Assembly: GCA_035692045.1 (NCBI GenBank)
Contig: DASSIJ010000277.1
Coordinates: 1 to 58,919 of the forward strand
From: Pseudolabrys sp.
Lineage (GTDB): Bacteria; Pseudomonadota; Alphaproteobacteria; Rhizobiales; Xanthobacteraceae
Direction of reading: 5' to 3'
DNA: 58,919 bases
Shown: positions 34,893 to 57,439 of the stretch, piece after piece
Numbering within the stretch: position 1 is the stretch's first letter
How the letters are laid out: each line of letters begins with the position of its first letter
Position numbers and translations under genes: made by a program
The notes under the pieces: model-generated
Databases searched by the model: none
What the model was told of the DNA's origin: nothing
Seen by the model: the letters and a program-made list of their open reading frames with translations, nothing else

Positions 34893-37800
34893 TCAGTCGA
34901 ACCGTCCTGCCGCGTGCGCGAGCATGGTGTAAACCTTGCCGGTTTCCGAGGTCAGATAGGTTCGCGCCACGACCTGGCCGCGATCGTCGCGAGAAACCTC
35001 GTCGAGCAAACGTTCGAACTCGCTGATGTAGCGGTCTACCGTCTGCTTGAATTCGCGATCCGCGCGATATTTCTTGCGGATGTCGTCGAAGGCCTGTTGA
35101 CCCTGCAAGGTATAGAGCCGACGGGTGAAGACGTTGCGTTCACCACGCTTGTAGCGGTCCCAGAGATCGGCGGCCGCATCGTGGTCAATCATCCGCGCGA
35201 TATCGACTGAAAGTGAATCCAGCGACTCGATCGTGTGCCGTGGCGGCCGTTCTTCGTTTCCGCGCGCAGGGGCTGGTTCGCGCGCGCTTTCACGTGCCGG
35301 CTCGCGCGGGAATTCGCGTTGTGGGTCGGTTTCCTCGCGCGATGCGCGGGTGAGGAGGTCGGAAAGCCAGCCGCGCCCTGGCGCGATCGGTGCTGCCGCG
35401 GGTGAAGGCGTTTCGCTGCCGCGGCGCGCCGCCGGAGCAAAGCCTCCGCCGGTCTCGCTGCGCTGGACGGGGCGCGGGGGACTATCGCCGCGAGGCGGCG
35501 TTTCACTGCGTGAAGGCATCTCGTTACGCGACGGAGCCTCATTGCGCGGTGGCACCTCGCTCCGCGGTGCCGGTTCGTTGCGGCCACCACCGATGACGGC
35601 AAGCGTCGGCTCCTCGCGCACGCGACGGACTGGCTCGACCGCGTCGAGATTCCGGCCATGACGGGCGACAATCCGGTTGAGTTCGGCCAATGCTTCGATC
35701 TGGTCGACGATCACCCGGCGCATTTGCGCGGCGCTTTCGGCCGTTTCCTGTGGCAGCTCGAAGACCCCTCTGCGGAGTTCGGCGCGCGTGGTTTCCAGCT
35801 CGCGGTGCATCTCCGCGGCCATCTGCTTCATGCCCTGGACGGCCTCTGCAAAGCGCTCGTTGGCGTTGTGGAACAGGGTGTGGGTATCGCCTGTGGTTTG
35901 CTCGTAGAGCTCCCGCATTGCTCCAGTCGCCCGGAGCCGTTCCTCCTCGGCATTTTCGCGCACGCGCTCATATTGCTCGCTGATTGCGCGCGTACCCTCG
36001 GCGCTCGCCTCGGAAACGAGCCGCGCGACTTCCCGTGCGCGGGATGATGCGGCCTCGAGTGACTCGTCGAGCAGTCCGGAGAACCGGCTCAAGCGTTTTT
36101 CGAGATCCTCAGTACGAATGTCGAGCGTCGCGACCAGCGAGTCGAGCTGCACACGGCGCTCATTGACGCTGTCCTCGGCGCGCTGGTTGCTGTGATCGAT
36201 GACTTCAACAGCCTTGGCTAGCTCTCGGCCATGAATGTCAAACTGGCGGGCCAGCTGGCTGAGGTCTGTGATGACCTGCGCGGTGATGTCACGGAAATTG
36301 GAAATGTTTGTTTCCACCCGCCCGGTCGCGGCGCCAGTCGAGGCCGTGATGTCGTTCATCGCGGTCACGAACTCAGACACACGCAACATCAATGTGTTTT
36401 CGAGAGCGCCCATGTTTTCATGCGAACCGCTGAGCACTTCCTGCAACAAGATATTGGCTTCGCGCAACCGCTCGAACAGGGCGGTGGTATCGGTGCGGAG
36501 CATCGTGTGCGTTTCCAGCATCTCCTTGACGCTTGACGTCGCGGTGTCTTTCGAATGCGCGATCGCCTTCTGCGTGACGTCATTGAGTTCGGTCAGCGTG
36601 CGGGTGACTGCGCTGGTGGCCGCTTCGCCCGCGCTATTGATCATGCGCGAGATCTCGGTGCTGTTGTCCATCATCGTGCGCGTAAAGGCGAAGCCTCTTT
36701 CTTCGATCGCCTTGACCGCTTGATCTGTCGCGCCGGTTACCTGGCGCGTGAACTGGTCGCTTTTCTGGGTGATGGCCGCCAGCACGCCGCCGCTCTTGTC
36801 GGACAGGACCGTGGTCATTTCATTGGTACGCCGGCTGACCGCCGTCGCGATTTCCTCGGCTTTGCCGACGAAGCTGCGGGCAACCTCTTCGCTGACGCCG
36901 ACAAGTGTGCGCTCGGCCTCGCCGGCGCTGTTGCGAATTGCCTCGGTGGTGGACAGCGCAAGCTGACCGAGCGATCGCTCGGCTTCCGCCGAGTTGACCT
37001 TGATCGCCTGGCTCAGTTGTTCCAGCCGCGCATTAAGTGCATCCGCGGCGGCTTTGCTGCGGGTCTCAATCTGGCTGGTGACGGTCTCAGCACGGCCGAC
37101 AAGGAGTTCCTCGAAGCGGCCGATACGGCTGTCGAGATTGTTGGCGACCTCAAGGGCGCGCGTCCCCAGCGTTTTGTCCATCTCGCCAATCTTGGCGCTG
37201 ATCGAATCCGCCACTTCGACGCCCCGCGAATTGATAGTACCGGCGACTTGGCCGATGCGGTGGTCGAGGGCTTCGACGACGTCCTTGCCACCTTCAGTGA
37301 GCGCCTTGGCGATGTCGGACACACGCGAGCCAAGCACCGTTTCGAAATGCGCAAGCCGCTCGTCAAGCGTACTGGAAATCTCGCCGGTGCGGCCGGTGAC
37401 ACGCTGGTCGAAGGTATCAAGGTAGCTGCGCAGCGCTTCGGCCACATCCTGCGTGCGCTGGCCAAGCCGCCCGACCAGCTCGCCCCCGTAGTTCTTCACC
37501 GTGTGATCGAACTCGGTGATGTGGCGGGTAATCAGGTTGCCGAGATTGCTGGCGTCTCGCGAGATTTTCTCGGTGAGCTCGGTGCCGCCCTGGTTGAACA
37601 TGCTTTCAAAGGCCTGCAGGCGGGCCGCCAACATGTCTTTGACCGTCTCGCTATTGCTGTTGAGCGCCGTAACGAGTGATTCCGCGCTTTGGCGGAACGT
37701 ATCTGCGACCGCGTCGCTGCGGTTCGTAATGGTGTCGGTGATGCGAGCGCCGGTTTGTTCCAGCTTTGAGACGACATCACCCCCGCGCAGGGAAAGGTCG

Positions 37801-39113
37801 AGGACGAGCGAATCTCCGGTCGAACGCAAGGTTGTGTTTACCTCGTCGGCGCGGGAAGCGATCGACTCGGCCAGACGCGTGCTCGTGTCGGTGAGGGCGT
37901 CAGTGAATTGTTGCGAGCGGTTCGCCATAGTTTCAATGGTGACGGATGATTTCTCCGCGAAGCCCTGGGCGACCTGATCGAGACGCGCACTCATCATCTG
38001 TTGCAGACGAGCCGCCAGCTCAGCGAATTCGTCGTGGACATGCTCGGTCTTGAAATTAAGGCTGGCAGACAGGCGGTCGCTTGCAGACGATATCGCCGTG
38101 GTGGCCTGATCGCTGGTTGTTTCCAGCTTCTCGAGCAGCGTCGAACCGCGCTCGCTCAGGGCATCAATCATGGAATCGCCGGCGTGGCCAAGTGCCAGGG
38201 TGATGTGTTCGCCCTTCTCGGTGAGTGAGCGGGTTACGCGTTGCGCCACCTCATTGACCTTATCGGCAACCAAATCGCCGACCGAGGTAACGTCGTGCGC
38301 AAGATCGAGGTGGACGCTGGCAATGGCGTTGCGGACGTGCTCGGCCTGGTTGACCAATGTTTCACGTTGATTGGTCAGCTCGGTGAGCAGATCGCGAATG
38401 CGGACCTCGTTGTCGTTGTAGGCGCGCTCGAGCGCCGAGACTTCGTTGTGCACCAGCGCCTCGAGCTCGGCGGCGCGGGCAAGCGCCCGTTCGACACCAT
38501 CGCCCATAGCTGCGACTTCGCGGCGGATCGCCTGGCCCACGGTGACAATCGACTCGTGCGCAACGGTCTCGGGTTGTGCAAGGCGCATCGCCACTTCGGC
38601 CATGGATTCAGCGACGACACGCATATCCTGGGCGCGGTTGAACATGTGGGCGAGCACGAAGAAGAAAATCACCGGCACGGCGATCGCGGCGGCGAGCGCG
38701 ACAATCGCGGCAAGGCCGACGCCCGGCGTCGCGAAAACGGACCGCATTTCGGCGCCATACAGGGTCGCAATGGCGATACCGCCCACGGCCCAAATGAAAC
38801 TGCCGACCGCAGCGGCGATGTACGGCCCGCGACCCGATCGGTAGCGCAGGGCCTGCAATATTTGTCCGATGCCGGCGCGGTCATCGTTGGCGGCCCGGCG
38901 CGGCACGGTTTCGCCGGTCGGCCAGGTGGCCGGGGGTGCTTCCTGCGGGAACAACTCGCCGGCCGGGGGTGTCGATGCGGCGGCGGCGTCACTCTCGGCA
39001 ACTGGCTCAAAAGGCGTTCCGGGGCGGGTCTCGGGCGCACGAATATTGAGGGCCTCCTGAATGGCAGAGAGAGCCTCTTCCGTCGCGTCTTTTGATTTAG
39101 GGATATTCGCCAT
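34893..39113 (-). CDS. Polar-growth scaffold, GPR/RgsE-like (two TM helices plus apolipoprotein-like helical repeats)
   Basis: 1406 aa; AANDDR, two TM helices, IRREVAAMGDGVERALARAAELEALVHNEVSALERAY, long helical repeats, C-terminal DIARMIDHDA..LWDRY.RGERNVFTRRLYT..TSETGKVYTMLAHAAGRFD. Confidence 0.8.
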   Translation of the reverse strand: MANIPKSKDATEEALSAIQEALNIRAPETRPGTPFEPVAESDAAAASTPPAGELFPQEAPPATWPTGETVPRRAANDDRAGIGQILQALRYRSGRGPYIAAAVGSFIWAVGGIAIATLYGAEMRSVFATPGVGLAAIVALAAAIAVPVIFFFVLAHMFNRAQDMRVVAESMAEVAMRLAQPETVAHESIVTVGQAIRREVAAMGDGVERALARAAELEALVHNEVSALERAYNDNEVRIRDLLTELTNQRETLVNQAEHVRNAIASVHLDLAHDVTSVGDLVADKVNEVAQRVTRSLTEKGEHITLALGHAGDSMIDALSERGSTLLEKLETTSDQATTAISSASDRLSASLNFKTEHVHDEFAELAARLQQMMSARLDQVAQGFAEKSSVTIETMANRSQQFTDALTDTSTRLAESIASRADEVNTTLRSTGDSLVLDLSLRGGDVVSKLEQTGARITDTITNRSDAVADTFRQSAESLVTALNSNSETVKDMLAARLQAFESMFNQGGTELTEKISRDASNLGNLITRHITEFDHTVKNYGGELVGRLGQRTQDVAEALRSYLDTFDQRVTGRTGEISSTLDERLAHFETVLGSRVSDIAKALTEGGKDVVEALDHRIGQVAGTINSRGVEVADSISAKIGEMDKTLGTRALEVANNLDSRIGRFEELLVGRAETVTSQIETRSKAAADALNARLEQLSQAIKVNSAEAERSLGQLALSTTEAIRNSAGEAERTLVGVSEEVARSFVGKAEEIATAVSRRTNEMTTVLSDKSGGVLAAITQKSDQFTRQVTGATDQAVKAIEERGFAFTRTMMDNSTEISRMINSAGEAATSAVTRTLTELNDVTQKAIAHSKDTATSSVKEMLETHTMLRTDTTALFERLREANILLQEVLSGSHENMGALENTLMLRVSEFVTAMNDITASTGAATGRVETNISNFRDITAQVITDLSQLARQFDIHGRELAKAVEVIDHSNQRAEDSVNERRVQLDSLVATLDIRTEDLEKRLSRFSGLLDESLEAASSRAREVARLVSEASAEGTRAISEQYERVRENAEEERLRATGAMRELYEQTTGDTHTLFHNANERFAEAVQGMKQMAAEMHRELETTRAELRRGVFELPQETAESAAQMRRVIVDQIEALAELNRIVARHGRNLDAVEPVRRVREEPTLAVIGGGRNEPAPRSEVPPRNEAPSRNEMPSRSETPPRGDSPPRPVQRSETGGGFAPAARRGSETPSPAAAPIAPGRGWLSDLLTRASREETDPQREFPREPARESAREPAPARGNEERPPRHTIESLDSLSVDIARMIDHDAAADLWDRYKRGERNVFTRRLYTLQGQQAFDDIRKKYRADREFKQTVDRYISEFERLLDEVSRDDRGQVVARTYLTSETGKVYTMLAHAAGRFD
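35472..35582 (-). repeat. Degenerate 18-bp (6-aa) tandem repeat within GPR-like gene
   Basis: RNEPAP-RSEVPP-RNEAPS-RNEMPS-RSETPP-RGDSPP. Confidence 0.7.
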
Positions 39114-39283
39114 AAGGTCGCCGCCTCGTCATTGCGCCGGACTTGTCGCCGGGGCTCGTACCGTAACGATAAAAGGGGGCCCCTGCCGCGAGAGCGGCAT
39201 TGCTGCGGCATTGACCGCGAGCTCCCCTGTTTATCGCCCGGCGGTCATCCTATCGCCTTGGCAATGCGAAGGAAACCACGCTG

Positions 39284-39320
39284 GTAAGGTCTTTTTAATC
39301 ATCGTTAACTGATTGCTAAC
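39284..39320. promoter_or_regulatory. Two CtrA-like boxes in the GPR/Hpt divergent promoter region
   Basis: GTAA-ggtcttt-TTAA (39284-39298) and TTAA-ctgattg-CTAAC (39305-39320) vs TTAA-N7-TTAAC. Confidence 0.6.
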
Positions 39321-44580: not shown

Positions 44581-44651
44581 GCAATAAGTTCCCCAGCCTG
44601 ACGCAGTGTTACCCGCTTGACGGACAACCCGGCTAGGGCGAATTGTCGCGC

Positions 44652-45827
44652 ATGTTTGTAACATTCTTCGCCGAACTCAAAAGCGCCGGCGTACCAGTGA
44701 CGCTGCGCGAATATCTCACGCTGATGCAGGCCATGGATGCTGACCTTGCCTCGCGCCGGGTGGAGGATTTTTATTACCTGTCTCGCGCGGCGCTCGTGAA
44801 AGACGAGCGCAACCTCGACAAGTTCGATCGCGTGTTTGGTCACGTGTTCAAAGGGCTGGAAACGCTTGATGGCGCGATCGAGGCCGAGATTCCGGCTGAA
44901 TGGTTGAAAAAGCTCGCCGAAAAATATCTCACCGAAGAAGAGAGGAAACAGATCGAGGCCATGGGAGGTCTCGACAAGTTGCTGGAAACGTTGCGCAAGC
45001 GTTTGGCCGAACAGAAAGGACGACATCAGGGCGGCTCGAAATGGATCGGCACCGCCGGCACGTCACCTTATGGTGCCTACGGCTACAACCCGGAAGGCAT
45101 TCGCATCGGCCAGGATTCCAATCGCAACTTTCGCGCAGTCAAAGTTTGGGACAAGCGTGAATTCAAGGATCTCGACGACGACGTCGAACTCGGCACCCGC
45201 AACATCAAACTCGCGCTACGCCGTCTTCGCAAGTTTGCGCGTACTGGCGCGCCGGAAGAACTCGATCTCGACGGGACCATCAAAGGTACGGCGCACAAGG
45301 GATACCTCGACATCCTGATGCGGCCGGAGCGGCACAATGCGGTGAAGGTGCTGTTGTTCTTCGACATCGGCGGATCGATGGATTGGCACATCAAGTCCAC
45401 CGAAGAATTGTTCTCGGCGGCGCGCACCGAGTTCAAGCATATGGAATATTTTTACTTCCATAACTGTCTCTATGAGCGGGTATGGAAGGAGAATCGACGC
45501 CGCTTTCAGGCGACCACACCGACGTGGGACGTGCTGCACACATATCCGCACGACTACAAAGTGATTTTCGTCGGCGATGCGTCAATGTCTCCGTACGAGG
45601 TTGTGGCCCAGGGAGGATCGGTCGAGCACTACAACGACGAACCCGGCGCGCTCTGGCTCGAGCGCGTGACGCGCACCTACCCGGCCTGTGTCTGGCTCAA
45701 TCCGGTACCGGAGAAGGAGTGGGGCTTCACCCAGTCAATCACCATGGTGCATCAGTTGATGGGCGGACGAATGTATCCGCTCACGCTGGACGGGCTCGAC
45801 CGTGCGACGCGCGAACTGGCGCGCTAG
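44652..45827 (+). CDS. VWA-domain protein (CoxE-like MoxR partner)
   Basis: GGSKWIGTAGTSPYG, LDLDGTI, DIGGSM MIDAS-like, FVGDASM, WLNP. Confidence 0.9.
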   Translation: MFVTFFAELKSAGVPVTLREYLTLMQAMDADLASRRVEDFYYLSRAALVKDERNLDKFDRVFGHVFKGLETLDGAIEAEIPAEWLKKLAEKYLTEEERKQIEAMGGLDKLLETLRKRLAEQKGRHQGGSKWIGTAGTSPYGAYGYNPEGIRIGQDSNRNFRAVKVWDKREFKDLDDDVELGTRNIKLALRRLRKFARTGAPEELDLDGTIKGTAHKGYLDILMRPERHNAVKVLLFFDIGGSMDWHIKSTEELFSAARTEFKHMEYFYFHNCLYERVWKENRRRFQATTPTWDVLHTYPHDYKVIFVGDASMSPYEVVAQGGSVEHYNDEPGALWLERVTRTYPACVWLNPVPEKEWGFTQSITMVHQLMGGRMYPLTLDGLDRATRELAR

Positions 45828-45900: not shown

Positions 45901-47331
45901 TTAGGCAGCGTTGGCTGGCCGCAGATGTGCGGGATCGTCCGGCGCTGCCCGTTCTCTTTGCAGCGCCATCGCCTCGCGCATGAGTCGGGCGAAATCCTTG
46001 CGGGCGGTCTCCAATGCTCCTTCGACCACCGAACACTGCATCTGCTCTCGACGCAGGGAGACGCTCAATTCCTCGATCCTCTGCTCGGCGGCCTGCTTTT
46101 CGGCAGCCCGCGCTGCTTCGAGGGCATTGATCTGTTCGCTCAACGCCGAGATGGTGTCCTCGGCGCGTGTCAGCGCAGCTTCCTTGACGGTAAAGGCACG
46201 GGCGAGGGTGGTGCTACGCTCCATGAGCGTGGCGCGCGCTTGATCCACTTCCGTAAATTGGGATTCGCGCTGCATTCGCTCCGTTTCGAGATCGGCAATG
46301 CGAGCCTGCAGGGCGTCGCGTTCCATTGCCAGCTCACCGGCGCGCCTGTCGTAGATGCGAATCTCGTCGGCGCGGGCAAGCAGATGCTCGCGTGCGTCGC
46401 CTAGCAGCTTTTCGCTCGCGGAGGCGCGGGCCTGGAGAGCATCGAACCGCATGCGTTGGGTCGTGAGCTCATGCTCGTGCCGTTCCTTGGCCTCGTCGAA
46501 CGCGCTGGCGAGCCTCGTTCGTTCAGTGCTCAACTCTGCGAAATTGCCTTCCACATGGCGCAAGCGGCCTTGCGAGGCCGTGAGGCCCGCCTCGGCCTCG
46601 GCAAGCTTGCGCGAGAGGCGAGCTCCGTCGGCGCTGATCTTGTCGAGCGAGATCTGCTGCGCGCGCCTTTCGTCCTCGATCATGAGCAACCGTTGACGTG
46701 CGGCATTCACTTCGGATTCAAGAGACGCCACGCGCTTTTCGGCAGTGGATAGCCGTTCATCGAGGCGACGATTCTCCTCGCGAAGGGCCTTTCCCTCTCC
46801 GGTTTCCTGCGCGAGCCGCGCTTCCAGATCCACGATCTGCGCGCGCCGGGCAGCAACATCGATGGCAATTTCAGCCTTGGTGGCTTCAAGCGCGCGGAGC
46901 AGGCTCTGGGTGGTGGTGAGTTCCTGGCGGAACGCCTGACATTCCTTTTCTGAAAATGCTGCCTTTTTCTCCAGCTCGGCCACTTCATTGCGCAACTTGC
47001 CATAGGCAGTTCGCGTATTGCTAAGCACCGTCTGCAGGCTGATCTTCTCGGATTTCTCGGCTTCGAATGCGCGAAGGGCCTTGCTGACCGGATCAACGAG
47101 CCTGCCGACGGCATTCTTGATGGTGTCGAGCTCGCCAATCTTGGCATTGGCATCGAGCAGGAGATTGCGGAGGGATTCGTTCTCGCCGCCAAGCTGGGCA
47201 CCCAGCGCGGAGAACAGTTCTTCGTCGAGTTCGAGCGGGTTGTCGGGAGGGGCGGTATTGGTCGGCGTTGGCGCGGCCGTGTTGTCGTAAAGTCCGGCCT
47301 TGCGGGCAAATAGGCCCCCGAATTTGCTCAT
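45901..47331 (-). CDS. Crescentin (CreS)-like coiled-coil protein, paralog 1
   Basis: 476 aa continuous coiled coil; RRAGEL..RIADLE..VDQARAT..EAALTRAE..EGALETARKDFARL is colinear with the crescentin C-terminal rod as I recall it. Confidence 0.7.
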   Translation of the reverse strand: MSKFGGLFARKAGLYDNTAAPTPTNTAPPDNPLELDEELFSALGAQLGGENESLRNLLLDANAKIGELDTIKNAVGRLVDPVSKALRAFEAEKSEKISLQTVLSNTRTAYGKLRNEVAELEKKAAFSEKECQAFRQELTTTQSLLRALEATKAEIAIDVAARRAQIVDLEARLAQETGEGKALREENRRLDERLSTAEKRVASLESEVNAARQRLLMIEDERRAQQISLDKISADGARLSRKLAEAEAGLTASQGRLRHVEGNFAELSTERTRLASAFDEAKERHEHELTTQRMRFDALQARASASEKLLGDAREHLLARADEIRIYDRRAGELAMERDALQARIADLETERMQRESQFTEVDQARATLMERSTTLARAFTVKEAALTRAEDTISALSEQINALEAARAAEKQAAEQRIEELSVSLRREQMQCSVVEGALETARKDFARLMREAMALQRERAAPDDPAHLRPANAA

Positions 47332-47352
47332 TGACGTGACCCCTAAAACGCC

Positions 47353-47436
47353 GATTCGCCCGGCCGAAGCGACGCCGAATCACTCGTTAACCGATCCTAA
47401 CGGAATCTGAATTTCTGTGGGTAAATGAAAGGTTAA
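47353..47436 (-). promoter_or_regulatory. Cell-cycle-type promoter: three GANTC sites plus a CtrA-like box
   Basis: GATTC 47353, GAATC 47377, GAATC 47403; minus-strand TTAA-cctttca-TTTAC at 47436-47421. Confidence 0.6.
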
Positions 47437-47646
47437 CGGTAAATCGCGACAGCCTTTCAATGGTTTATCGAAAAAACGGCCAGCGGCTGCTGAATACCGG
47501 CGCGCGCGAAATACCGCCTGTCACGGCGCTGTAGCCCTGTGGACAACCTGATGGCACAGAGTGCCGCCGCTCATTTAGCCCGTGCCTCGGAATCGAAATG
47601 CCGGCGTCGAACCGGATCGGCGCCGGCAATTTCATCGGGTCCAGCT

Positions 47647-48402
47647 TCAGGCGCGCTTGCTTATGAACAAGCCTTCGCAAAGGCGAAAGGTGAGCTCGGC
47701 ACCAGTGCCTTGCGGCTGCAAAGTTGCCTTCACCTCGGGCGCTATCTCAGTCAGCATCGCGCGCAACAATGCCTGCATGATGGTGTCGTAACGCGCGGCC
47801 CAGCTCTTGAACTCCATCGTCTTGTAGATTTGCTCTTCGTGCGTTGTTTGGAGGCCGGCCCTGTCAAGCGCACTTCGCCATTCCTCCATGGTCCAAGCCC
47901 GTAGATGGCTCGGATCGCGGAGACGCTCGAAGGCGTTCACGTAATCGCCCACGCTGCCCGCCGGTACGACATTGTCGACGAGTGCGAACAATCCGTTCGT
48001 TTTGAGTGTGCGGTACACTTCACCGAGAAAGTCGGGAATCGAGTCGAAATGGTGCGGCGCGATCCGACACGTGACAAGGTCGAAGCTTTCGTCCTCGAAA
48101 GGCAGTGCTTCAGCCTTTGCATATGTCGTGCGGATGTTGGCAAGGCCGCGCTTTGCAGCTTCGCCTTTGACCATGTCGAGCATTTCCTGAGTGATGTCGG
48201 TCGCCCAAACGCGAGCAACGTGGGGCGCAAAAGCGTAGGCGACATGGCCGCCGCCAGTGGCGACGTCAAGAACGCGCCAGCCTTTTTGCGGGGAGGTGAG
48301 CGCGACCAGCCGTTCCAGGCTTTTACCGACCGCGTGTGGTTTGCTGGTGAGGTAATGAGCTGCGGTTTTGCCGAACTGCTCCTGGACGAGGGTTTTGCTC
48401 AT
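47647..48402 (-). CDS. Class I SAM-dependent methyltransferase (UbiE-like)
   Basis: VLDVATGGGH, AEALPFEDESFDLVTCRIAPHHF, RDPSH. Confidence 0.9.
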   Translation of the reverse strand: MSKTLVQEQFGKTAAHYLTSKPHAVGKSLERLVALTSPQKGWRVLDVATGGGHVAYAFAPHVARVWATDITQEMLDMVKGEAAKRGLANIRTTYAKAEALPFEDESFDLVTCRIAPHHFDSIPDFLGEVYRTLKTNGLFALVDNVVPAGSVGDYVNAFERLRDPSHLRAWTMEEWRSALDRAGLQTTHEEQIYKTMEFKSWAARYDTIMQALLRAMLTEIAPEVKATLQPQGTGAELTFRLCEGLFISKRA

Positions 48403-48501
48403 GGGTGCTCCCGATCAGTACCAGTGAACAGCAATACATAGCGTGCCGGGCATTCGCACGCGCGATATATGCATGATGGTACTGCCGAAAGTGCGGGGCG
48501 G

Positions 48502-48729
48502 CTAGTTGTCGCCGCCGCTCAGGTCGTCATAGCCATGACGGTTACTGTAAAACACAAGGGCCATCAGGCCGCCGCCAACCAGCAGTGAGAACAGGACACC
48601 ACCCGCTATGGCGACATAGCCGTAGAGCGGAATTTCATCACCGCCGATACGCGTCCAGGCAGCGGCCGCAAACCAGACCGACAAACCCAAAAGCGCGAGC
48701 AGCGGCACGACGAGGAGAAACTTGCGCAT
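48502..48729 (-). CDS. Small two-TM membrane protein
   Basis: GGGLMALVFYSNRHGYDD C-terminal motif typical of a small alphaproteobacterial family. Confidence 0.75.
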   Translation of the reverse strand: MRKFLLVVPLLALLGLSVWFAAAAWTRIGGDEIPLYGYVAIAGGVLFSLLVGGGLMALVFYSNRHGYDDLSGGDN

Positions 48730-48828
48730 CCCGTTAATATAGGACGTCGCGGTAGCCGTGCCACGGTCCGGACTTCAAAAAGCAAATACGGAATTGCTAT
48801 CCGCATTCAAAACGATGGCTTGGTAAGC

Positions 48829-50334
48829 CTAGCCGTTGCCGCCAGCTTCGGAAAGTTGTCCGGTTTTGCCCCGTCTTGCCGCCGGGGGCGTTTCGTCGTT
48901 GGCGGCCTCAGCGGGCGGAACCGGAATGTCGTCGAGCGGCGCCCCGCGTCGCAATGTCGATCTTAGGGCCCCGACCTCGCTTTGCAGGCGGGAGTTGTCC
49001 TTGCGCGCAGCTTCCAGGGCGCCTTCGACAACGGCGCGCTCCATGCGCTCGCGCTGGAGTGCGGAATTGAGATCCTCCACGCGCTTTTCGATATTGGTAC
49101 GAATGATCTGAATATCCGCTTCCAGATGTCCATTGCGTTCGGTCAGCGCACCGATCTTCTCTTCCGCGCGGGCGAGGGCGGTTTCGCGCATCTTCATCGC
49201 CTTGGACAAAGCATTGTTACGCTCGGTCAAGGCGATGCGCGCCTGCTCGTGATCCTTGATCTGTCGTTCGCGCGTTTCGTGCTGGACTTCGATCTGGGCG
49301 AGCCGCTTCTCCGAATTGTTGCGAGCGATCGTCGCTTCGACCGATTTACGGTCGAATGCGCGCACCTCTTCGGTGCGAGCGATAAGATTTTGCCGCGCCT
49401 CGGACAGCAGGCGCTCGGCGGTTGCGGCGCGCGATTGCAATCCGTCCAACCGCATGTTCAGGCTGCTGCGTTCGGCCTGGTGCTGCTCTTTGGATTCATC
49501 AAGCGCAGCGCCGAGCCGTCCGCGCTCCGCGTAGGCTTCTGCAAAGCTCGACTCGACCTTACCGAGTTGAGCGCGGGTCGCGGTCAGCGTGTTCTCGCTT
49601 TCAGTCAGCCGCCGCGTCAGCCGTGCGGTTTCGTTCAGCGCCTGATCGACCGCGATTTGCAGCGAACGTTTTTCATCTTCCAGAAGCGCGAGGCTCTCGC
49701 GAGCAGCTGCGAGTTCTCCCTCAAGTTCGACGATGTGCTTCTCGGCGGCGTCGTGCTGCTCATTCAGCGCCCGGCGGGATTCACTGAGTGTCCGGCGCTG
49801 GGTGGTTTCCTGCGCCAGTTGACGGTCAAGTTCGGCAATTTGCGCGCGGCGCGCATTGATATCATCGGTAAGCTCAAGCCGGGTGCTTTCCAGAGCCCGA
49901 TTTGCTTCTCGCGAGAGCTCGAGATCTTCGCGCAGTCTTCCCGCTTCACTTTCGAATATCGTTGCCTTTTTTTCGATCTGATAGAATTCCTCGCGCAGCG
50001 TCTCGTAGGCTGTGCGCGCTTCCGCCAGCATTCCAGACAGACTCATTGTCTGGGATTTTTCTTGTTCAAGAGCGCGGAGGGTGCTGTTGAACGGCGCAAC
50101 AAGCTTGTCGAAAGCCTCCTTGAGGTCGTCGAGCTCGCTGATCTTTCGGCCGGTGTCAGTCAGCAGATTGCGCAGGACCTCGTTTTCCTCACCCATCCGC
50201 GAACCGACGTCGGACAGGTTTTCCACAGAGATATGGTTGCCGCCGTTGCCATTTCCGTTTGCAGCTCGCGCCAAAAGTTTGTCGATCTCGGCCGCGCCGC
50301 CCTTTCGGCCAAAAAGGTCCGACAGCTTCGCCAT
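48829..50334 (-). CDS. Crescentin (CreS)-like coiled-coil protein, paralog 2
   Basis: 501 aa coiled coil; aligns by eye with paralog 1; ends in AVVEGALEAARKDNSRLQ; GGGAGG RBS. Confidence 0.7.
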   Translation of the reverse strand: MAKLSDLFGRKGGAAEIDKLLARAANGNGNGGNHISVENLSDVGSRMGEENEVLRNLLTDTGRKISELDDLKEAFDKLVAPFNSTLRALEQEKSQTMSLSGMLAEARTAYETLREEFYQIEKKATIFESEAGRLREDLELSREANRALESTRLELTDDINARRAQIAELDRQLAQETTQRRTLSESRRALNEQHDAAEKHIVELEGELAAARESLALLEDEKRSLQIAVDQALNETARLTRRLTESENTLTATRAQLGKVESSFAEAYAERGRLGAALDESKEQHQAERSSLNMRLDGLQSRAATAERLLSEARQNLIARTEEVRAFDRKSVEATIARNNSEKRLAQIEVQHETRERQIKDHEQARIALTERNNALSKAMKMRETALARAEEKIGALTERNGHLEADIQIIRTNIEKRVEDLNSALQRERMERAVVEGALEAARKDNSRLQSEVGALRSTLRRGAPLDDIPVPPAEAANDETPPAARRGKTGQLSEAGGNG

Positions 50335-50483
50335 GACGACGCCTCCCCAACCCCAGAAACGCTACGACAGCCCCAAACGCCGCAATTACGTTATTATATC
50401 GCTGTGGCGATGGAAACACTCGCAACAGCAGCCTGTGCGTTTCGTCGCGTCCGTCCGGCCCTTGTCGGCCATGGCTGTAAGGG

Positions 50484-53563: not shown

Positions 53564-54409
53564 TTATCTATTCTCTCGCCGCGCCATAAAGGCCAACCGC
53601 TCGAACAGATGGACGTCCTGTTCGTTCTTGAGCAGCGCGCCATGGAGGGGCGGAATGAGCTTCTTGGGGTCGCGCTCGCGCAGGGTTTCAGGTCCGATGT
53701 CTTCGACCATCAGGAGCTTGAGCCAATCGAGAAGCTCGGAGGTTGAAGGCTTCTTCTTCATTCCCGGCACTTCGCGGATCTCATAAAATAGTCGCAAGGC
53801 TTCTCCGACAAGCCTTTGTTTTATATCGGGGAAATGCACCTGAATAATCGCGCGCATGGTGTCCGCATCGGGAAAGCGGATGTAGTGAAAGAAGCATCGG
53901 CGCAGGAATGCGTCCGGCAATTCCTTCTCGTTGTTCGAGGTGATGACCACGATCGGCCGACGCCGTGCCTTCACGGTCTCGCCGGTCTCGTACACAAAGA
54001 ACTCCATGCGATCGAGTTCCTGTAGCAGGTCATTGGGAAACTCGATGTCGGCCTTGTCGATCTCGTCGATCAGTAACACCGGTCGCTCGTCGGCGACGAA
54101 GGCGTCCCACAGTTTGCCGCGCTTGATGTAGTTGCGGATGTCCTTGACGCGTTCGTCACCAAGCTGGCTGTCGCGCAGGCGTGAGACCGCGTCGTATTCG
54201 TAAAGACCCTGCAGCGCTTTGGTCGTGGATTTGATGTGCCATTCAATGAGCGGTGCGCCGATGGCTTTTGCAATTTCCAGGGCCAGCACGGTCTTGCCGG
54301 TGCCTGGTTCGCCTTTGACGAGGAGAGGGCGCTCGAGAGTAATTGCGGCATTGACCGCGATTTTCAGGTCGTCGGTCGCGACATAGGCCTTGGTGCCGTC
54401 AAAACGCAT
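53564..54409 (-). CDS. MoxR-family AAA+ ATPase
   Basis: GEPGTGKT Walker A, LLIDEIDKAD Walker B, TSNNEKELPDAFLRRC. Confidence 0.93.
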   Translation of the reverse strand: MRFDGTKAYVATDDLKIAVNAAITLERPLLVKGEPGTGKTVLALEIAKAIGAPLIEWHIKSTTKALQGLYEYDAVSRLRDSQLGDERVKDIRNYIKRGKLWDAFVADERPVLLIDEIDKADIEFPNDLLQELDRMEFFVYETGETVKARRRPIVVITSNNEKELPDAFLRRCFFHYIRFPDADTMRAIIQVHFPDIKQRLVGEALRLFYEIREVPGMKKKPSTSELLDWLKLLMVEDIGPETLRERDPKKLIPPLHGALLKNEQDVHLFERLAFMARRENR

Positions 54410-54512
54410 ACAATGCATCCTCTTGCGATGGTCCATCTATCATAGACCGGCGCGACATTCATATAGACCGGAAGCGCTACGACGCGGAGCCTTGGCGAAA
54501 GCCTGATCTCCG

Positions 54513-56759
54513 CTAGCCGCGTACCGCGCCTTCAAGGAAATTCTCCAGCGCCGTCACGGGCGCGCGGTCTCCATAGAGGCGGTGCCTGTTTTCGGCCATC
54601 CGGGACGACATCGTCTGGCGGAATTGCGTGTCCTGACCAAGGCGCGTCGCGATAGCGACATAGTCGTCTACGGTCGCTGCGATGGTGTCGGTGACATCAA
54701 TCATCCGCAAAATTGCTGCACTGTGCCGGCCGCGCATCGTCGCGCCTTCCAAGGTTACGATCGGCAGAGCTTGAGGAAGACATTCCAGCGCCGAATTGCA
54801 GCCCGACCAACCGATGCTGTCGAGAAACACGTCGCAAAGTCCGGCCGCGGCCGCGAAGTGGCTTTGGCTCATGCGGTTGAGAAAAACGCAGTGATGCTCG
54901 GCGCGCATGCCCGCCGCTGAAAATGCGCGCTCAAGCCGCTCGCGCACGAACTGCGTAACCCTTGGCGCACCGAAATGGCGCAGGAACACGAATTGGCAAT
55001 CACCAACGGCCTGCGCGATGCGCACGAACACGTCGTCGTATTGCGGCAGGTATTTAAAGAGTGATTGAGCGCTCCAAAACGCGGTCGCTCCGGCGCGCAG
55101 GCCCAGTCCCTCGCGCGTGACCGAAACCGGTTCAGCCACGACCGGCTCGTAATAGATCGAAAGATTCGGCAGCCGCACCAGCTTTTCAGTGTAGCAGGCT
55201 TGTGCATCCGGCGGCTCCATCAAATCGCTCGACAGGAAATAGTCGATCGTGGAGAGGCCGCTGGTTTCCGGGTGGCCCCATGAATTGCATTGCACCGATG
55301 CAAGGCGCTGTGCCGCAAGCTGCAGCGAGGAGACATCCATAAGGAGGCCTGGGTAAATCAGGGCATGTGGCGCATCGGCGAGGATTTCACGCCGCCAGCC
55401 GTCAGTGTCGAGAGTGCGATGAACAAACCGGTCGCACAGGCGGGCGGCAGCATCCGTTTGCTCGTCATGAATGGCGCCGAGATGATAACAGGTCACATGG
55501 AAGCGGCTGCGGTCGAGCTGGCTGATCCAGCCCTTGATCGGAATTTTCCAGTTGGAGTGGCGATAAAAAAAACTGCTGACGATGCCGAGGCGGATCGGCT
55601 CGCCGGGCGCCGGCGAGGGCGGCAGCGGCGCCGGCGAAAACCGGCGAGCGATCACTTTGCCGATCATCTCACCGTAGATTTGTTGCAGGGCGCGGTCGTT
55701 GCCACCCTGGTAGGCGAGCAGGAAGGGATGTCTGGCGCCAATCGCCTTGATCAGATCGCCCTTGAGCACGCCGCGTTCCACGTCATTGAGCAGCTCGCGC
55801 AACTTCTGTTCGTAGGCAGCACGGCATCGCGGGATTTCGCTCTCGTCCCGATAGATAACGGGCAGTTCGGCGAAACAGGCTGCAAAGCGTGCGTCTGCGT
55901 GGCCGGGTGCGAGCGTCAGCGCCTGAGCGAGATCGGCGGCGGCTTCCTCATTCCGGCTGATCTCCAACAGACAACGGCCGCGCTGGTACCAGGCCTCAGC
56001 GTCCTCCGGATTAAATTTCAACGCGGCGGTGAAATTGTCGATTGCATCGTCGGCGCGATCAAGTGCGAGCAGCACGCGGCCGCGATTGTTCCGCGACTCG
56101 GTGAAGCCGGGGGCCAACGCAAGCGCACGGTCGTAGCAGGCAAGAGCCTCGGGCAGCCGGTTGATCCCCTCCAGCACCGCGCCGCGATTATTCAGCGCCT
56201 TGACATAGTCGGGGCGCAGCAAAAGCGCGCGGTCGAGACTGACCAACGCTTCGTCGTACCGCCCGAGCACGCGCAGGGACGAACCGAGGTTGTAATGTGC
56301 ATCGGCGTAGTCAGACTTCAGGGCGAGCGCCTTGTGAAAACAAGCCACCGCCTCTTCGTGGCGCCCAAGCGCAGCCAGCACCGCGCCCCGATTGTTGTGC
56401 GCCTCGGCGAATTTCGATTTTTGCTTTAATGCGGCGTCGAAGCAGGCAAGCGCCTCCTCGCTCCGATCGAGCGCATGGAGGATCATTCCGTGGTTGACCA
56501 GAATTTGCGGGGAGGGTCTGCGCATGCGCATTGCCTCGGAAATGAGGCGCAAGGCTTCCGCGGGCTGGCCCTTGGCGAGCTTGATCACGCTGAGCATTTG
56601 CAAAGCGTCGAAATGATCGGGCCGGTGAGCGAGGACTTCGGAATAAAGCTGTTCGGCCTCTGCCAGGCGGCCTTGCTTATGCAGTTCCAGCGCCTGCGCG
56701 AAGACCTGCGGCACCTTGATCGGCGCTGGTACTGGCACTGGCGCTGGCGCTGGCGGCAT
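54513..56759 (-). CDS. TPR-containing GT41 (SPINDLY/OGT-like) protein O-glycosyltransferase
   Basis: About 8 N-terminal TPRs; IRLGIVSSFFYRHS, QRLASVQCNSWGHPETSG..IDYFLS, DVFLDS..SGCNS..GRHS. Confidence 0.85.
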   Translation of the reverse strand: MPPAPAPVPVPAPIKVPQVFAQALELHKQGRLAEAEQLYSEVLAHRPDHFDALQMLSVIKLAKGQPAEALRLISEAMRMRRPSPQILVNHGMILHALDRSEEALACFDAALKQKSKFAEAHNNRGAVLAALGRHEEAVACFHKALALKSDYADAHYNLGSSLRVLGRYDEALVSLDRALLLRPDYVKALNNRGAVLEGINRLPEALACYDRALALAPGFTESRNNRGRVLLALDRADDAIDNFTAALKFNPEDAEAWYQRGRCLLEISRNEEAAADLAQALTLAPGHADARFAACFAELPVIYRDESEIPRCRAAYEQKLRELLNDVERGVLKGDLIKAIGARHPFLLAYQGGNDRALQQIYGEMIGKVIARRFSPAPLPPSPAPGEPIRLGIVSSFFYRHSNWKIPIKGWISQLDRSRFHVTCYHLGAIHDEQTDAAARLCDRFVHRTLDTDGWRREILADAPHALIYPGLLMDVSSLQLAAQRLASVQCNSWGHPETSGLSTIDYFLSSDLMEPPDAQACYTEKLVRLPNLSIYYEPVVAEPVSVTREGLGLRAGATAFWSAQSLFKYLPQYDDVFVRIAQAVGDCQFVFLRHFGAPRVTQFVRERLERAFSAAGMRAEHHCVFLNRMSQSHFAAAAGLCDVFLDSIGWSGCNSALECLPQALPIVTLEGATMRGRHSAAILRMIDVTDTIAATVDDYVAIATRLGQDTQFRQTMSSRMAENRHRLYGDRAPVTALENFLEGAVRG

Positions 56760-56932
56760 GATTCCCCCTTGCATTGAGGGGTAAAAAAGCTGGACTGAGT
56801 CGTCTAGGGTGAAGTGTCGAAATGGCGGGGCACAGCGGCCTAACGGGATCGTGATGGCAGCGCGATCGGTAGTTGATTTGCGTCCGCCGGGCGGTCGCGC
56901 GACTGTGGACCAGGCACAGTGGAGACCGCACA

Positions 56933-57439
56933 ATGATCAATCGGCGCGCCCTGTTTTTTGCTGGTGTGGCGTTTTCAGCGCTGGCGGTCAGCGTTAGATT
57001 TGGCAGGTCACAAACCATGAGCACCACCGAAACGATCGACTATCGCAAGCTTTCCGACATGGATTGGCGCCAGCGGCTTACGGCGGACCAATACATGATC
57101 CTGCGGCACCACGGCACGGAACGCCCCGGGAGTAGCCCGCTCAATAAGGAAAAGCGTAAGGGAACCTTCACCTGCGCCGGGTGCGACCTGCCGTTGTTCT
57201 CGTCGGATACCAAGTTTGAGAGCGGGACCGGGTGGCCGAGTTTCTATCAGCCATTGGCCAACGCGGTAGAGACCAGGACTGACCGGTCACTTTTCATGAC
57301 GCGCACCGAAGTGCATTGTTCACGCTGCCTGGGTCATCTCGGCCATGTATTCGATGACGGACCGCAACCGACCGGCTTGCGCTATTGCATGAACGGGGTC
57401 GCGCTGAAGTTCGCTCCGCAGCCCGGCTCTTCTTCGTAA
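56933..57439 (+). CDS. msrB: Peptide-methionine (R)-S-oxide reductase with Tat-like leader
   Basis: GTERP, CAGC, KFESGTGWPSF, RTEVHC..C.GHLGHVFDDGP, RYCMNG; MINRRALFF leader. Confidence 0.93.
   Translation: MINRRALFFAGVAFSALAVSVRFGRSQTMSTTETIDYRKLSDMDWRQRLTADQYMILRHHGTERPGSSPLNKEKRKGTFTCAGCDLPLFSSDTKFESGTGWPSFYQPLANAVETRTDRSLFMTRTEVHCSRCLGHLGHVFDDGPQPTGLRYCMNGVALKFAPQPGSSS

What the first reader, a model, noticed from the sequence alone, without database searches (positions are those of the whole stretch)
45901..50334. Two crescentin-like paralogs: candidate two-subunit intermediate-filament-like cytoskeleton in a polar-growing bacterium
Seen: co-oriented 476-aa and 501-aa coiled-coil proteins 1.5 kb apart that align colinearly by eye (GGENESLRNLL/GEENEVLRNLL; RTAYGKLR/RTAYETLR; VVEGALETARKDFARL/VVEGALEAARKDNSRL). 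Both begin with a short basic amphipathic segment (MSKFGGLFARK, MAKLSDLFGRK). Established, from recall: Caulobacter crescentin is of similar length, uses a basic N-terminus for membrane attachment, ends its rod with EGALEAARRDRSRLQ, is a single-gene homopolymer and relies on MreB-type lateral growth. Inference: these are diverged CreS homologs that may co-polymerise (as keratin pairs or Vibrio CrvA/CrvB do) and shape a cell that grows from the pole via GPR. Automated annotation would probably call them SMC-like or hypothetical.
Basis: partly seen in the sequence, partly recalled or inferred. Interest (0 to 1): 0.88.

Follow-up and report, generated by a model that had tools for sequence, protein, structure and literature searches.

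The report
Twin crescentins, one likely cell-cycle timed
This soil bacterium, which lacks the usual wall-building guide protein MreB, carries two copies of crescentin, the filament protein that bends Caulobacter; relatives keep either copy alone, so they are likely not an obligatory pair, and one copy likely is switched on and destroyed in step with the cell cycle.

Summary
Observation confirmed. Both ORFs are crescentin homologues (Pfam Rod_CreS 271 and 223 bits, cut-off 100), 42% identical, with head, rod and stutter kept. The host is Pseudolabrys; no MreB was found in it or in 33 relatives. Crescentin in Hyphomicrobiales is already published and shown to bend cells (PMC12700997); I found no text describing paralog pairs. 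The pair is old: copy A is one clade across genera, B is the ancestral type. An obligate keratin-like heteropolymer is unlikely: Pseudolabrys genomes keep only B, only A, or neither at an intact locus, and both rods are acidic with good homodimer charge pairing. What separates them is regulation: A has CtrA-like boxes upstream (57 of 65 loci, B 13 of 62) and a C-terminal Ala-Ala (66 of 67, B 0 of 61). Best reading: a steady copy plus a cell-cycle-timed, ClpXP-degradable copy, possibly mixing in one filament; all function is inferred. The scan had not noted this pair elsewhere. New variant of a known kind; interest 0.52.

The parts
45901..47331 (-). Crescentin paralog A (derived type), 476 aa; basic amphipathic N-terminus, A-specific ELDxxLF head motif, rod about 89-447, tail ending ANAA
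   Evidence: PF19220 271 bits; 8afl E 9.7e-15
45904..45915 (-). C-terminal Ala-Asn-Ala-Ala of A, candidate ClpXP degron (inferred)
   Evidence: ANAA in 65 of 66 A proteins behind a variable tail; AA in 66 of 67 A and 0 of 61 B loci
47346..47383 (-). Conserved 38-nt element just upstream of A's ribosome site, with a GANTC site; DNA site or RNA leader, undecided
   Evidence: core found in 77 of 78 A upstream regions, single strong copy in the genome; no Rfam match; no two-sided pair change
47386..47401 (-). Second, weaker CtrA-like box (2 mismatches) upstream of A
47421..47437 (.). CtrA-like box TTAA-N7-TTAAC (1 mismatch, both strands) upstream of A
47647..48402 (-). 251-aa SAM-methyltransferase-like gene between the paralogs (named by eye from its glycine motif; no family scan)
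   Evidence: present in 77 of 80 related loci and kept where both crescentins are lost
48502..48729 (-). 75-aa small hydrophobic protein between the paralogs
   Evidence: found in 66 of 80 related loci
48829..50334 (-). Crescentin paralog B (ancestral type), 501 aa; basic amphipathic N-terminus, rod about 89-446, variable low-complexity tail without AA
   Evidence: PF19220 223 bits; 8afl E 9.2e-19
50393..50425 (-). Conserved TTGCGA...TATAAT stretch upstream of B, candidate housekeeping promoter (inferred; may serve the divergent gene instead)
   Evidence: conserved columns; sequence
34893..39113 (-). GPR/RgsE-like protein, 1406 aa (context only)
   Evidence: PF01442 129 bits; two N-terminal hydrophobic segments; architecture as in PMC8262873

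Best explanation
The two genes are crescentin homologues from an old tandem duplication, and each likely builds a membrane-lining crescentin filament on its own: B likely as the steady copy, A likely as a copy switched on by CtrA and removed by the ClpXP protease during the cell cycle. Shown here: family membership, intact head, rod and stutter in both, purifying selection on both, loss of either copy in relatives, absence of MreB, and A-specific upstream boxes and Ala-Ala tail. Inferred from CreS (PMC10873595): parallel coiled-coil dimers assemble into non-polar filaments held at the inner membrane by the basic N-terminus. Inferred, untested: with no elongasome to block, the filament would bend the cell by restraining wall insertion along one side of the polar growth zone. 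A would supply fresh filament to the growing daughter compartment and be cleared around division. A and B may mix in one filament (about even odds), but neither needs the other.
For: Family. Stutter: B 246-449 aligns without a gap to wild-type CreS 237-440, while the stutter-removed mutant needs a 3-residue gap; my heptad fit breaks register near 417 in both. Selection: median dN/dS 0.175 (A) and 0.115 (B) against 39 of 52 relatives, 13 dropped as saturated. Independence: of 10 single-match Pseudolabrys genomes checked (of 15), 4 keep only B and 3 only A with flanks or a closed genome to show it, 3 are uninformative; 3 of 5 zero-match genomes checked have the locus intact with neither gene. 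Regulation: CtrA-like box (at most 1 mismatch) upstream of A in 57 of 65 loci, B 13 of 62, eleven neighbour genes 0 or 1 each; 8 of 10 A genes of other genera versus 3 of 16 B-type genes; motif as in PMC7200025. Tail: AA in 33 of 33 A-clade proteins, 0 of 25 paired B, background 4.2% of 1,992 long ORFs. GcrA, ClpX, DUF1465 (RcdA, name recalled) and a CtrA-like ORF are in the genome. A Hyphomicrobiales crescentin bends Caulobacter delta-creS, and CrvAB bends MreB-less polar-growing cells.
Against: No experiment on these proteins exists, and I found no description of curved Pseudolabrys cells. A terminal Ala-Ala is necessary but not sufficient for E. coli ClpXP, and short polar residues just before it are disfavoured (PMC10862746). 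The CreS tail makes filament end contacts, so ANAA could be structural. Five of 12 unpaired B-like proteins also end in AA, and one neighbour enzyme does in 12 of 32 loci. B has a CtrA-like box in 13 of 62 loci, and two A genes of another genus have none. The loci are close kin, so the counts are not independent. Caulobacter CreS is constant through the cycle and very static, which may make a filament hard to degrade.
Confidence: 0.5

Rival explanations
1. Obligate heteropolymer, as in keratin type I/II or Vibrio CrvA/CrvB: A and B must pair to form a working filament.
For: The pair is the usual state in Pseudolabrys: 66 of 80 loci carry B then A, and 146 of 189 genomes have two or more matches. 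The rods align with no gap. A predicted A-B complex gave weak support: 0.54 against 0.00 for the best of 3 controls, runs agreeing in at least 95% of contacts, partner pLDDT at least 78; the mark was reached by 116 of 157 solved and 2 of 215 mismatched pairs, but at 0.60 or under by only 18 solved pairs and both mismatches.
Against: Full-length lone A and lone B occur on several branches. Both rods are acidic (-6, -10). Attractive/repulsive g-e' pairs are 28/8 for AA, 24/6 for BB and 25/7 for AB; the heterodimer beats the mean of the homodimers in 7.5% of 53 pairs. The genes have separate upstream elements and a spacer of about 1-6 kb. The complex score may reflect likeness to the solved CreS homodimer.
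Confidence: 0.07
2. Redundant copies: both make the same filament, the second adds dose, and the CtrA boxes and tail only fine-tune it or are structural.
For: Either or both copies can be lost; heptad breaks and d/e positions are shared (58% identical versus about 35% at b/c/f).
Against: A has kept its own head motif (66 of 66 versus 0 of 60), tail and upstream element across genera, and evolves faster than B (p-distance 0.31 versus 0.19).
Confidence: 0.23
3. One or both proteins no longer bend the cell and act as a scaffold for pole growth, division or chromosome handling.
For: No MreB or MreC, the machinery that the Liu et al. model says crescentin slows. A shares CtrA-like boxes with the nearby GPR-like gene. 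No curved morphology was found in print for the genus.
Against: Curved Hyphomicrobiales carry crescentin-like genes and one complements curvature. Both genes are dispensable while the GPR-like gene stays.
Confidence: 0.17
4. Generic SMC-like or tape-measure coiled coils, not crescentin.
For: Weak SMC hits (about 50 bits against cut-offs above 567).
Against: Full-length Rod_CreS match at more than twice the cut-off; crescentin is the only PDB hit for either protein.
Confidence: 0.01

Closest known systems
Crescentin CreS of Caulobacter (Pfam PF19220; PDB 8AFL/8AFE; PMC10873595)
   Same: Rod length and register, stutter near the C-terminal end, basic N-terminus, EGALEAAR(K/R)D end motif, no transmembrane segment.
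   Different: Two paralogs instead of one; no MreB/MreC in the host; A has CtrA-like boxes and an Ala-Ala tail, whereas CreS levels are reported constant through the cycle.
Crescentin-like proteins of Hyphomicrobiales, e.g. Chelatococcus reniformis (PMC12700997)
   Same: Same family and order; published and shown to restore curvature.
   Different: The main text mentions no paralog pairs, MreB or polar growth. Its tree (Supplementary Fig. S13) could not be read and may show both copies.
Vibrio CrvA/CrvB module (bioRxiv 10.1101/2020.02.20.954503)
   Same: Curvature filament that arose by gene duplication; works in MreB-less polar-growing cells.
   Different: Periplasmic and unrelated in sequence; the Pseudolabrys copies have no hydrophobic signal or membrane segment and each is found alone.
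Keratin type I/II heteropolymers (recalled)
   Same: Two related coiled-coil rods in register.
   Different: No acidic/basic split, no homodimer penalty, no obligate co-occurrence.

Membership tests
Crescentin (PF19220) | Rod_CreS score above the curated cut-off over the whole profile | tested here: met
   271 and 223 bits versus 100, profile 1-359
Crescentin (PF19220) | Colinear match to solved CreS beyond generic coiled coil | tested here: met
   Only PDB hits; E 9.7e-15, 9.2e-19; profile 1.5e-30, next hit 2.8e-4
Crescentin (PF19220) | Stutter near CreS residue 406 | tested here: met
   Gap-free alignment to wild type, 3-residue gap to the SAT mutant; register break near 417 in a simple heptad fit
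Crescentin (PF19220) | Basic N-terminal segment for membrane attachment | tested here: met
   First 11 residues: mean net charge +2.9 (A, n=66) and +2.1 (B, n=60), hydrophobic moment about 0.5; binding itself untested
Crescentin (PF19220) | Non-polar filaments on the inner curve that bend the cell | not testable with these tools
   Needs microscopy and mutants
Obligate heteropolymer (keratin or CrvAB type) | Neither subunit kept alone | tested here: not met
   Lone A and lone B at intact loci
Obligate heteropolymer (keratin or CrvAB type) | Heterodimer favoured over homodimers by charge | tested here: not met
   crude register, g-e' pairs only
Obligate heteropolymer (keratin or CrvAB type) | Heterodimer can form | tested here: inconclusive
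   Weak support 0.54 versus 0.00; a homologous dimer is solved; no homodimer run for comparison
CtrA regulon (gene A) | Conserved TTAA-N7-TTAAC upstream | tested here: met
CtrA regulon (gene A) | CtrA binding and cell-cycle transcription | not testable with these tools
   RNA contigs cannot rank or time expression
ClpXP substrate (protein A) | Free C-terminal Ala-Ala in a favourable context | tested here: inconclusive
   AA conserved; preceding Asn not favoured in the E. coli screen
GPR/RgsE (neighbour at 34893-39113) | Two N-terminal membrane segments plus PF01442 repeats | tested here: met
GPR/RgsE (neighbour at 34893-39113) | Orthology to Agrobacterium GPR | not tested
   No direct comparison was run

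The most novel reading that the evidence does not exclude
A bacterial intermediate-filament-like system with isotypes: a stable crescentin and a cell-cycle-timed, protease-cleared crescentin that co-assemble in changing ratios and bend a cell with no MreB or elongasome, which would show that crescentin acts without the elongasome and can be remodelled by proteolysis.
Probability: 0.2. Interest if true: 0.82.

Novelty: new variant of a known kind. Interest (0 to 1): 0.52.

Why it matters
How crescentin bends cells is unsettled: the structural paper proposes that it slows MreB-guided elongasomes and is anchored by an unknown partner, perhaps MreB. A lineage that keeps crescentin under purifying selection without MreB tests this directly. 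The natural set of A+B, A-only, B-only and empty loci in one genus gives a ready comparison of shape against genotype. If A is timed and degraded, it would be a dynamic version of a filament known as static.

Tried and rejected
SMC or tape-measure identity: rejected. MreB in the window's genome: the only hit is FtsA; this genome also lacks the DnaK-sized hit that most relatives show, so it has gaps and the absence rests on relatives. In those, the best score was 62.6 bits over part of the profile in frames of about 640 aa or more; I translated only the window's own hit. One paper lists mreB for another genus of this group (passage); not checked. GPR linkage as functional coupling: rejected, 35 of 80 loci reach it within 10 kb but the block persists without crescentins. 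The first synteny script used the wrong strand or frame for some neighbours and was redone. RNA structure for the A element: no Rfam match and no compensatory pairs; the 41 rows were chosen by a pattern, so invariance is partly circular. GANTC methylation control: suggestive (mean 2.4-2.8 sites versus 0.2 for B; creS falls 1.6-fold without CcrM) but the site is lost in some A genes. Expression: four metatranscriptome assemblies hold pieces of both genes from relatives but cannot show transcription or level. Shared pseudogenisation of B: breaks in two lake genomes lie at different places. The careful tree did not finish in two runs; only the quick tree is used, no AU test, and Caulobacter CreS is not in it. 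The representatives search gave tails and diversity only. No monomer fold or fold search was run.
Full report
Observation. They are 42% identical over 477 columns with no gap in the rod. A 75-aa hydrophobic ORF and a 251-aa methyltransferase-like ORF lie between them.

Family. Both match Pfam Rod_CreS over the whole profile (271 and 223 bits; cut-off 100). Crescentin is the only PDB hit for either. SMC hits are about a tenth of their cut-offs. B aligns without a gap to wild-type CreS across the stutter and needs a three-residue gap against the stutter-removed mutant (stutter position from PMC10873595). A simple heptad fit of 53 pairs breaks register near residue 417 in both, and near 284-295. 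Both start with a basic amphipathic segment and have no hydrophobic membrane segment. Databases name close relatives 'crescentin', 'chromosome segregation ATPase' or hypothetical.

Host and MreB. The nearest named loci (97-98% identity to A) are Pseudolabrys. The only MreB-family hit in the genome is FtsA. In 34 genomes, 33 of them with a crescentin-like match, no hit exceeded 62.6 bits or covered the full profile; MreC was found in 0 of 5, while 7 of 14 controls rang. Rhizobiales lack the Rod complex and grow from the pole (PMC8546619, abstract). Polar growth of Pseudolabrys itself is inferred. A GPR-like gene by architecture lies 6.8 kb beyond A.

What is in print. Hallgren et al. 2025 (PMC12700997; section 9 read in full, passages elsewhere, four supplementary files searched) found crescentin-like proteins in 13 Hyphomicrobiales families and showed that the Chelatococcus gene restores curvature in Caulobacter delta-creS. 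Their main text has no mention of MreB, polar growth, Xanthobacter-family names or crescentin paralogs. The supplementary PDF with their tree (Fig. S13) was too large to read and may show both copies. Searches for crescentin with homolog, Hyphomicrobiales, Rhizobiales plus polar growth, and CrvA/CrvB/copolymer, and for Pseudolabrys plus curved (listings only unless cited) gave no paper on a paired crescentin. Subscription journals are not covered. The scan's own notes held nothing on this pair.

Distribution. In a family sample, 27 of 301 genomes passed the Pfam cut-off, including 9 of 9 in the window's genus. Outside the family, 3 genomes of an order sample of 401 had a match, one each, with only 3 candidates scored per genome. 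Of 80 loci fetched with A, 66 carry B upstream in the same orientation, about 1-6 kb away; 10 of the other 14 have too little flank and 4 lack an intact B between the flanking genes. Across 189 genomes of the genus, 146 have two or more matches (fragments included), 15 have one and 28 none. I checked 10 of the 15: four keep only B (one is a closed genome), three keep only A, three end at contig edges; two of the A-only genomes appear to be the same contigs as two of the four loci above. I checked 5 of the 28: three have the neighbourhood intact with neither gene, two did not yield the marker gene. Other genera are paired (g17, g30, g51), A-type only (g57, 4 of 4; one has a second, shortened A-type copy) or B-like only (g13, g16, 3 of 3 each).

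History. In a quick IQ-TREE tree of 73 proteins (SH-aLRT only; the careful run did not finish), all 33 A-type proteins form one side of a 100% branch, and B-like proteins are spread around the root set by three long-branched homologues from other families. So A is likely a derived copy from one duplication older than the genus; the root is uncertain and no AU test was run. The lone copies sit on several branches, which implies repeated losses. Both genes are under purifying selection (median dN/dS 0.175 and 0.115; 39 of 52 comparisons), and A changes faster.

Must they pair? Probably not. Besides the lone copies, both rods are acidic and the g-e' charge pairs are as good in AA (28 attractive, 8 repulsive) and BB (24, 6) as in AB (25, 7). 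The predicted A-B complex scored 0.54 against 0.00 for the best of three controls, which the tool rates as weak: 116 of 157 solved and 2 of 215 mismatched pairs reached the mark, but at 0.60 or under only 18 solved pairs and both mismatches did; runs agreed in at least 95% of contacts and partner pLDDT was at least 78. The CreS dimer is solved and close cousins also pass, so this shows only that mixing is plausible.

What differs between them. Upstream of A is a CtrA-like box (TTAA-N7-TTAAC, motif from PMC7200025 passages). In the window, 7 matches at one mismatch were found against 1.7 expected; two lie before A and four before the GPR-like gene. The box is present in 57 of 65 A loci, 13 of 62 B loci, 30 of 33 GPR loci, and 0 or 1 loci for each of eleven other neighbours. 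It is present in 8 of 10 A genes of other genera and 3 of 16 B-type genes. A 38-nt element with a GANTC site follows it in 77 of 78 A genes and is unique in the genome; its nature is undecided. B has a conserved TTGCGA...TATAAT stretch instead. A ends in Ala-Ala in 66 of 67 loci and B in 0 of 61; 33 of 33 A-clade proteins, 0 of 25 paired B and 5 of 12 unpaired B-like proteins do so, against 4.2% of long ORFs. ClpXP reads non-polar C-termini in Caulobacter (PMC8973945 passage), and Ala-Ala is needed but not enough in E. coli (PMC10862746 passages). That Caulobacter CtrA itself ends in a similar NAA degron is recalled, not checked. These counts are of related genomes and are not independent.

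Mechanism. CreS forms non-polar filaments of parallel dimers, needs its first 27 residues for membrane location, and is proposed to slow elongasomes (PMC10873595, parts 2-4 of 9). Without MreB that route is closed, so I infer a direct one-sided restraint on wall insertion behind the growth pole; CrvAB shows that a filament can bend a polar-growing cell (bioRxiv 2020.02.20.954503 passages). I infer that B gives a lasting filament and A gives a timed, removable supply for the new compartment. None of these steps is shown, and whether these cells are curved is unknown.

Verdict. Real and correctly assigned to crescentin; the family's presence in this order is known. The conserved two-copy arrangement with a regulatory split was not found in print. 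The obligate two-subunit reading is unlikely. New variant of a known kind; interest 0.52.

Noticed in passing
window 39283-39320: Cluster of four CtrA-like matches between the GPR-like gene and a divergent single-domain Hpt-like gene (named by eye); conserved in 30 of 33 related loci.
   Followed up: partly
window 47346-47383: 38-nt element upstream of all A-type genes across genera, absent from B-type genes, can be drawn as two short hairpins; only one-sided pair changes.
   Followed up: partly
L030, L031, L032 (genus g2): Shortened crescentin-like proteins of about 400 aa lacking the head and first part of the rod; some representatives (P0015, P0020; 757 and 850 aa) carry six repeats of a rod segment.
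   Followed up: no
L191:6216-7121: Second, internally shortened A-type copy (open frame 301 aa, still ends in AA) away from the main locus in an A-only genus.
   Followed up: partly
L184 (G691): A Pseudolabrys that lost A has a B ending in Ala-Ala, unlike all paired B proteins; two or three other B-only genomes do not.
   Followed up: no
L126: Both crescentin genes decayed in place: a short B tail remnant and a truncated, frameshifted A.
   Followed up: partly
window 54513-56933: 806-aa TPR protein with a glycosyltransferase-like C-terminal part (by eye, no scan), present in 13 of 80 related loci.
   Followed up: no
window 44643-45827 and 53564-54436: VWA-like and MoxR-like AAA genes (by eye) flank the crescentin block on opposite sides and stay when the crescentins are lost.
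   Followed up: no
window B protein, residues about 481-486: B's tail contains AANDE, which resembles the start of a tmRNA tag (recalled); likely chance.
   Followed up: no
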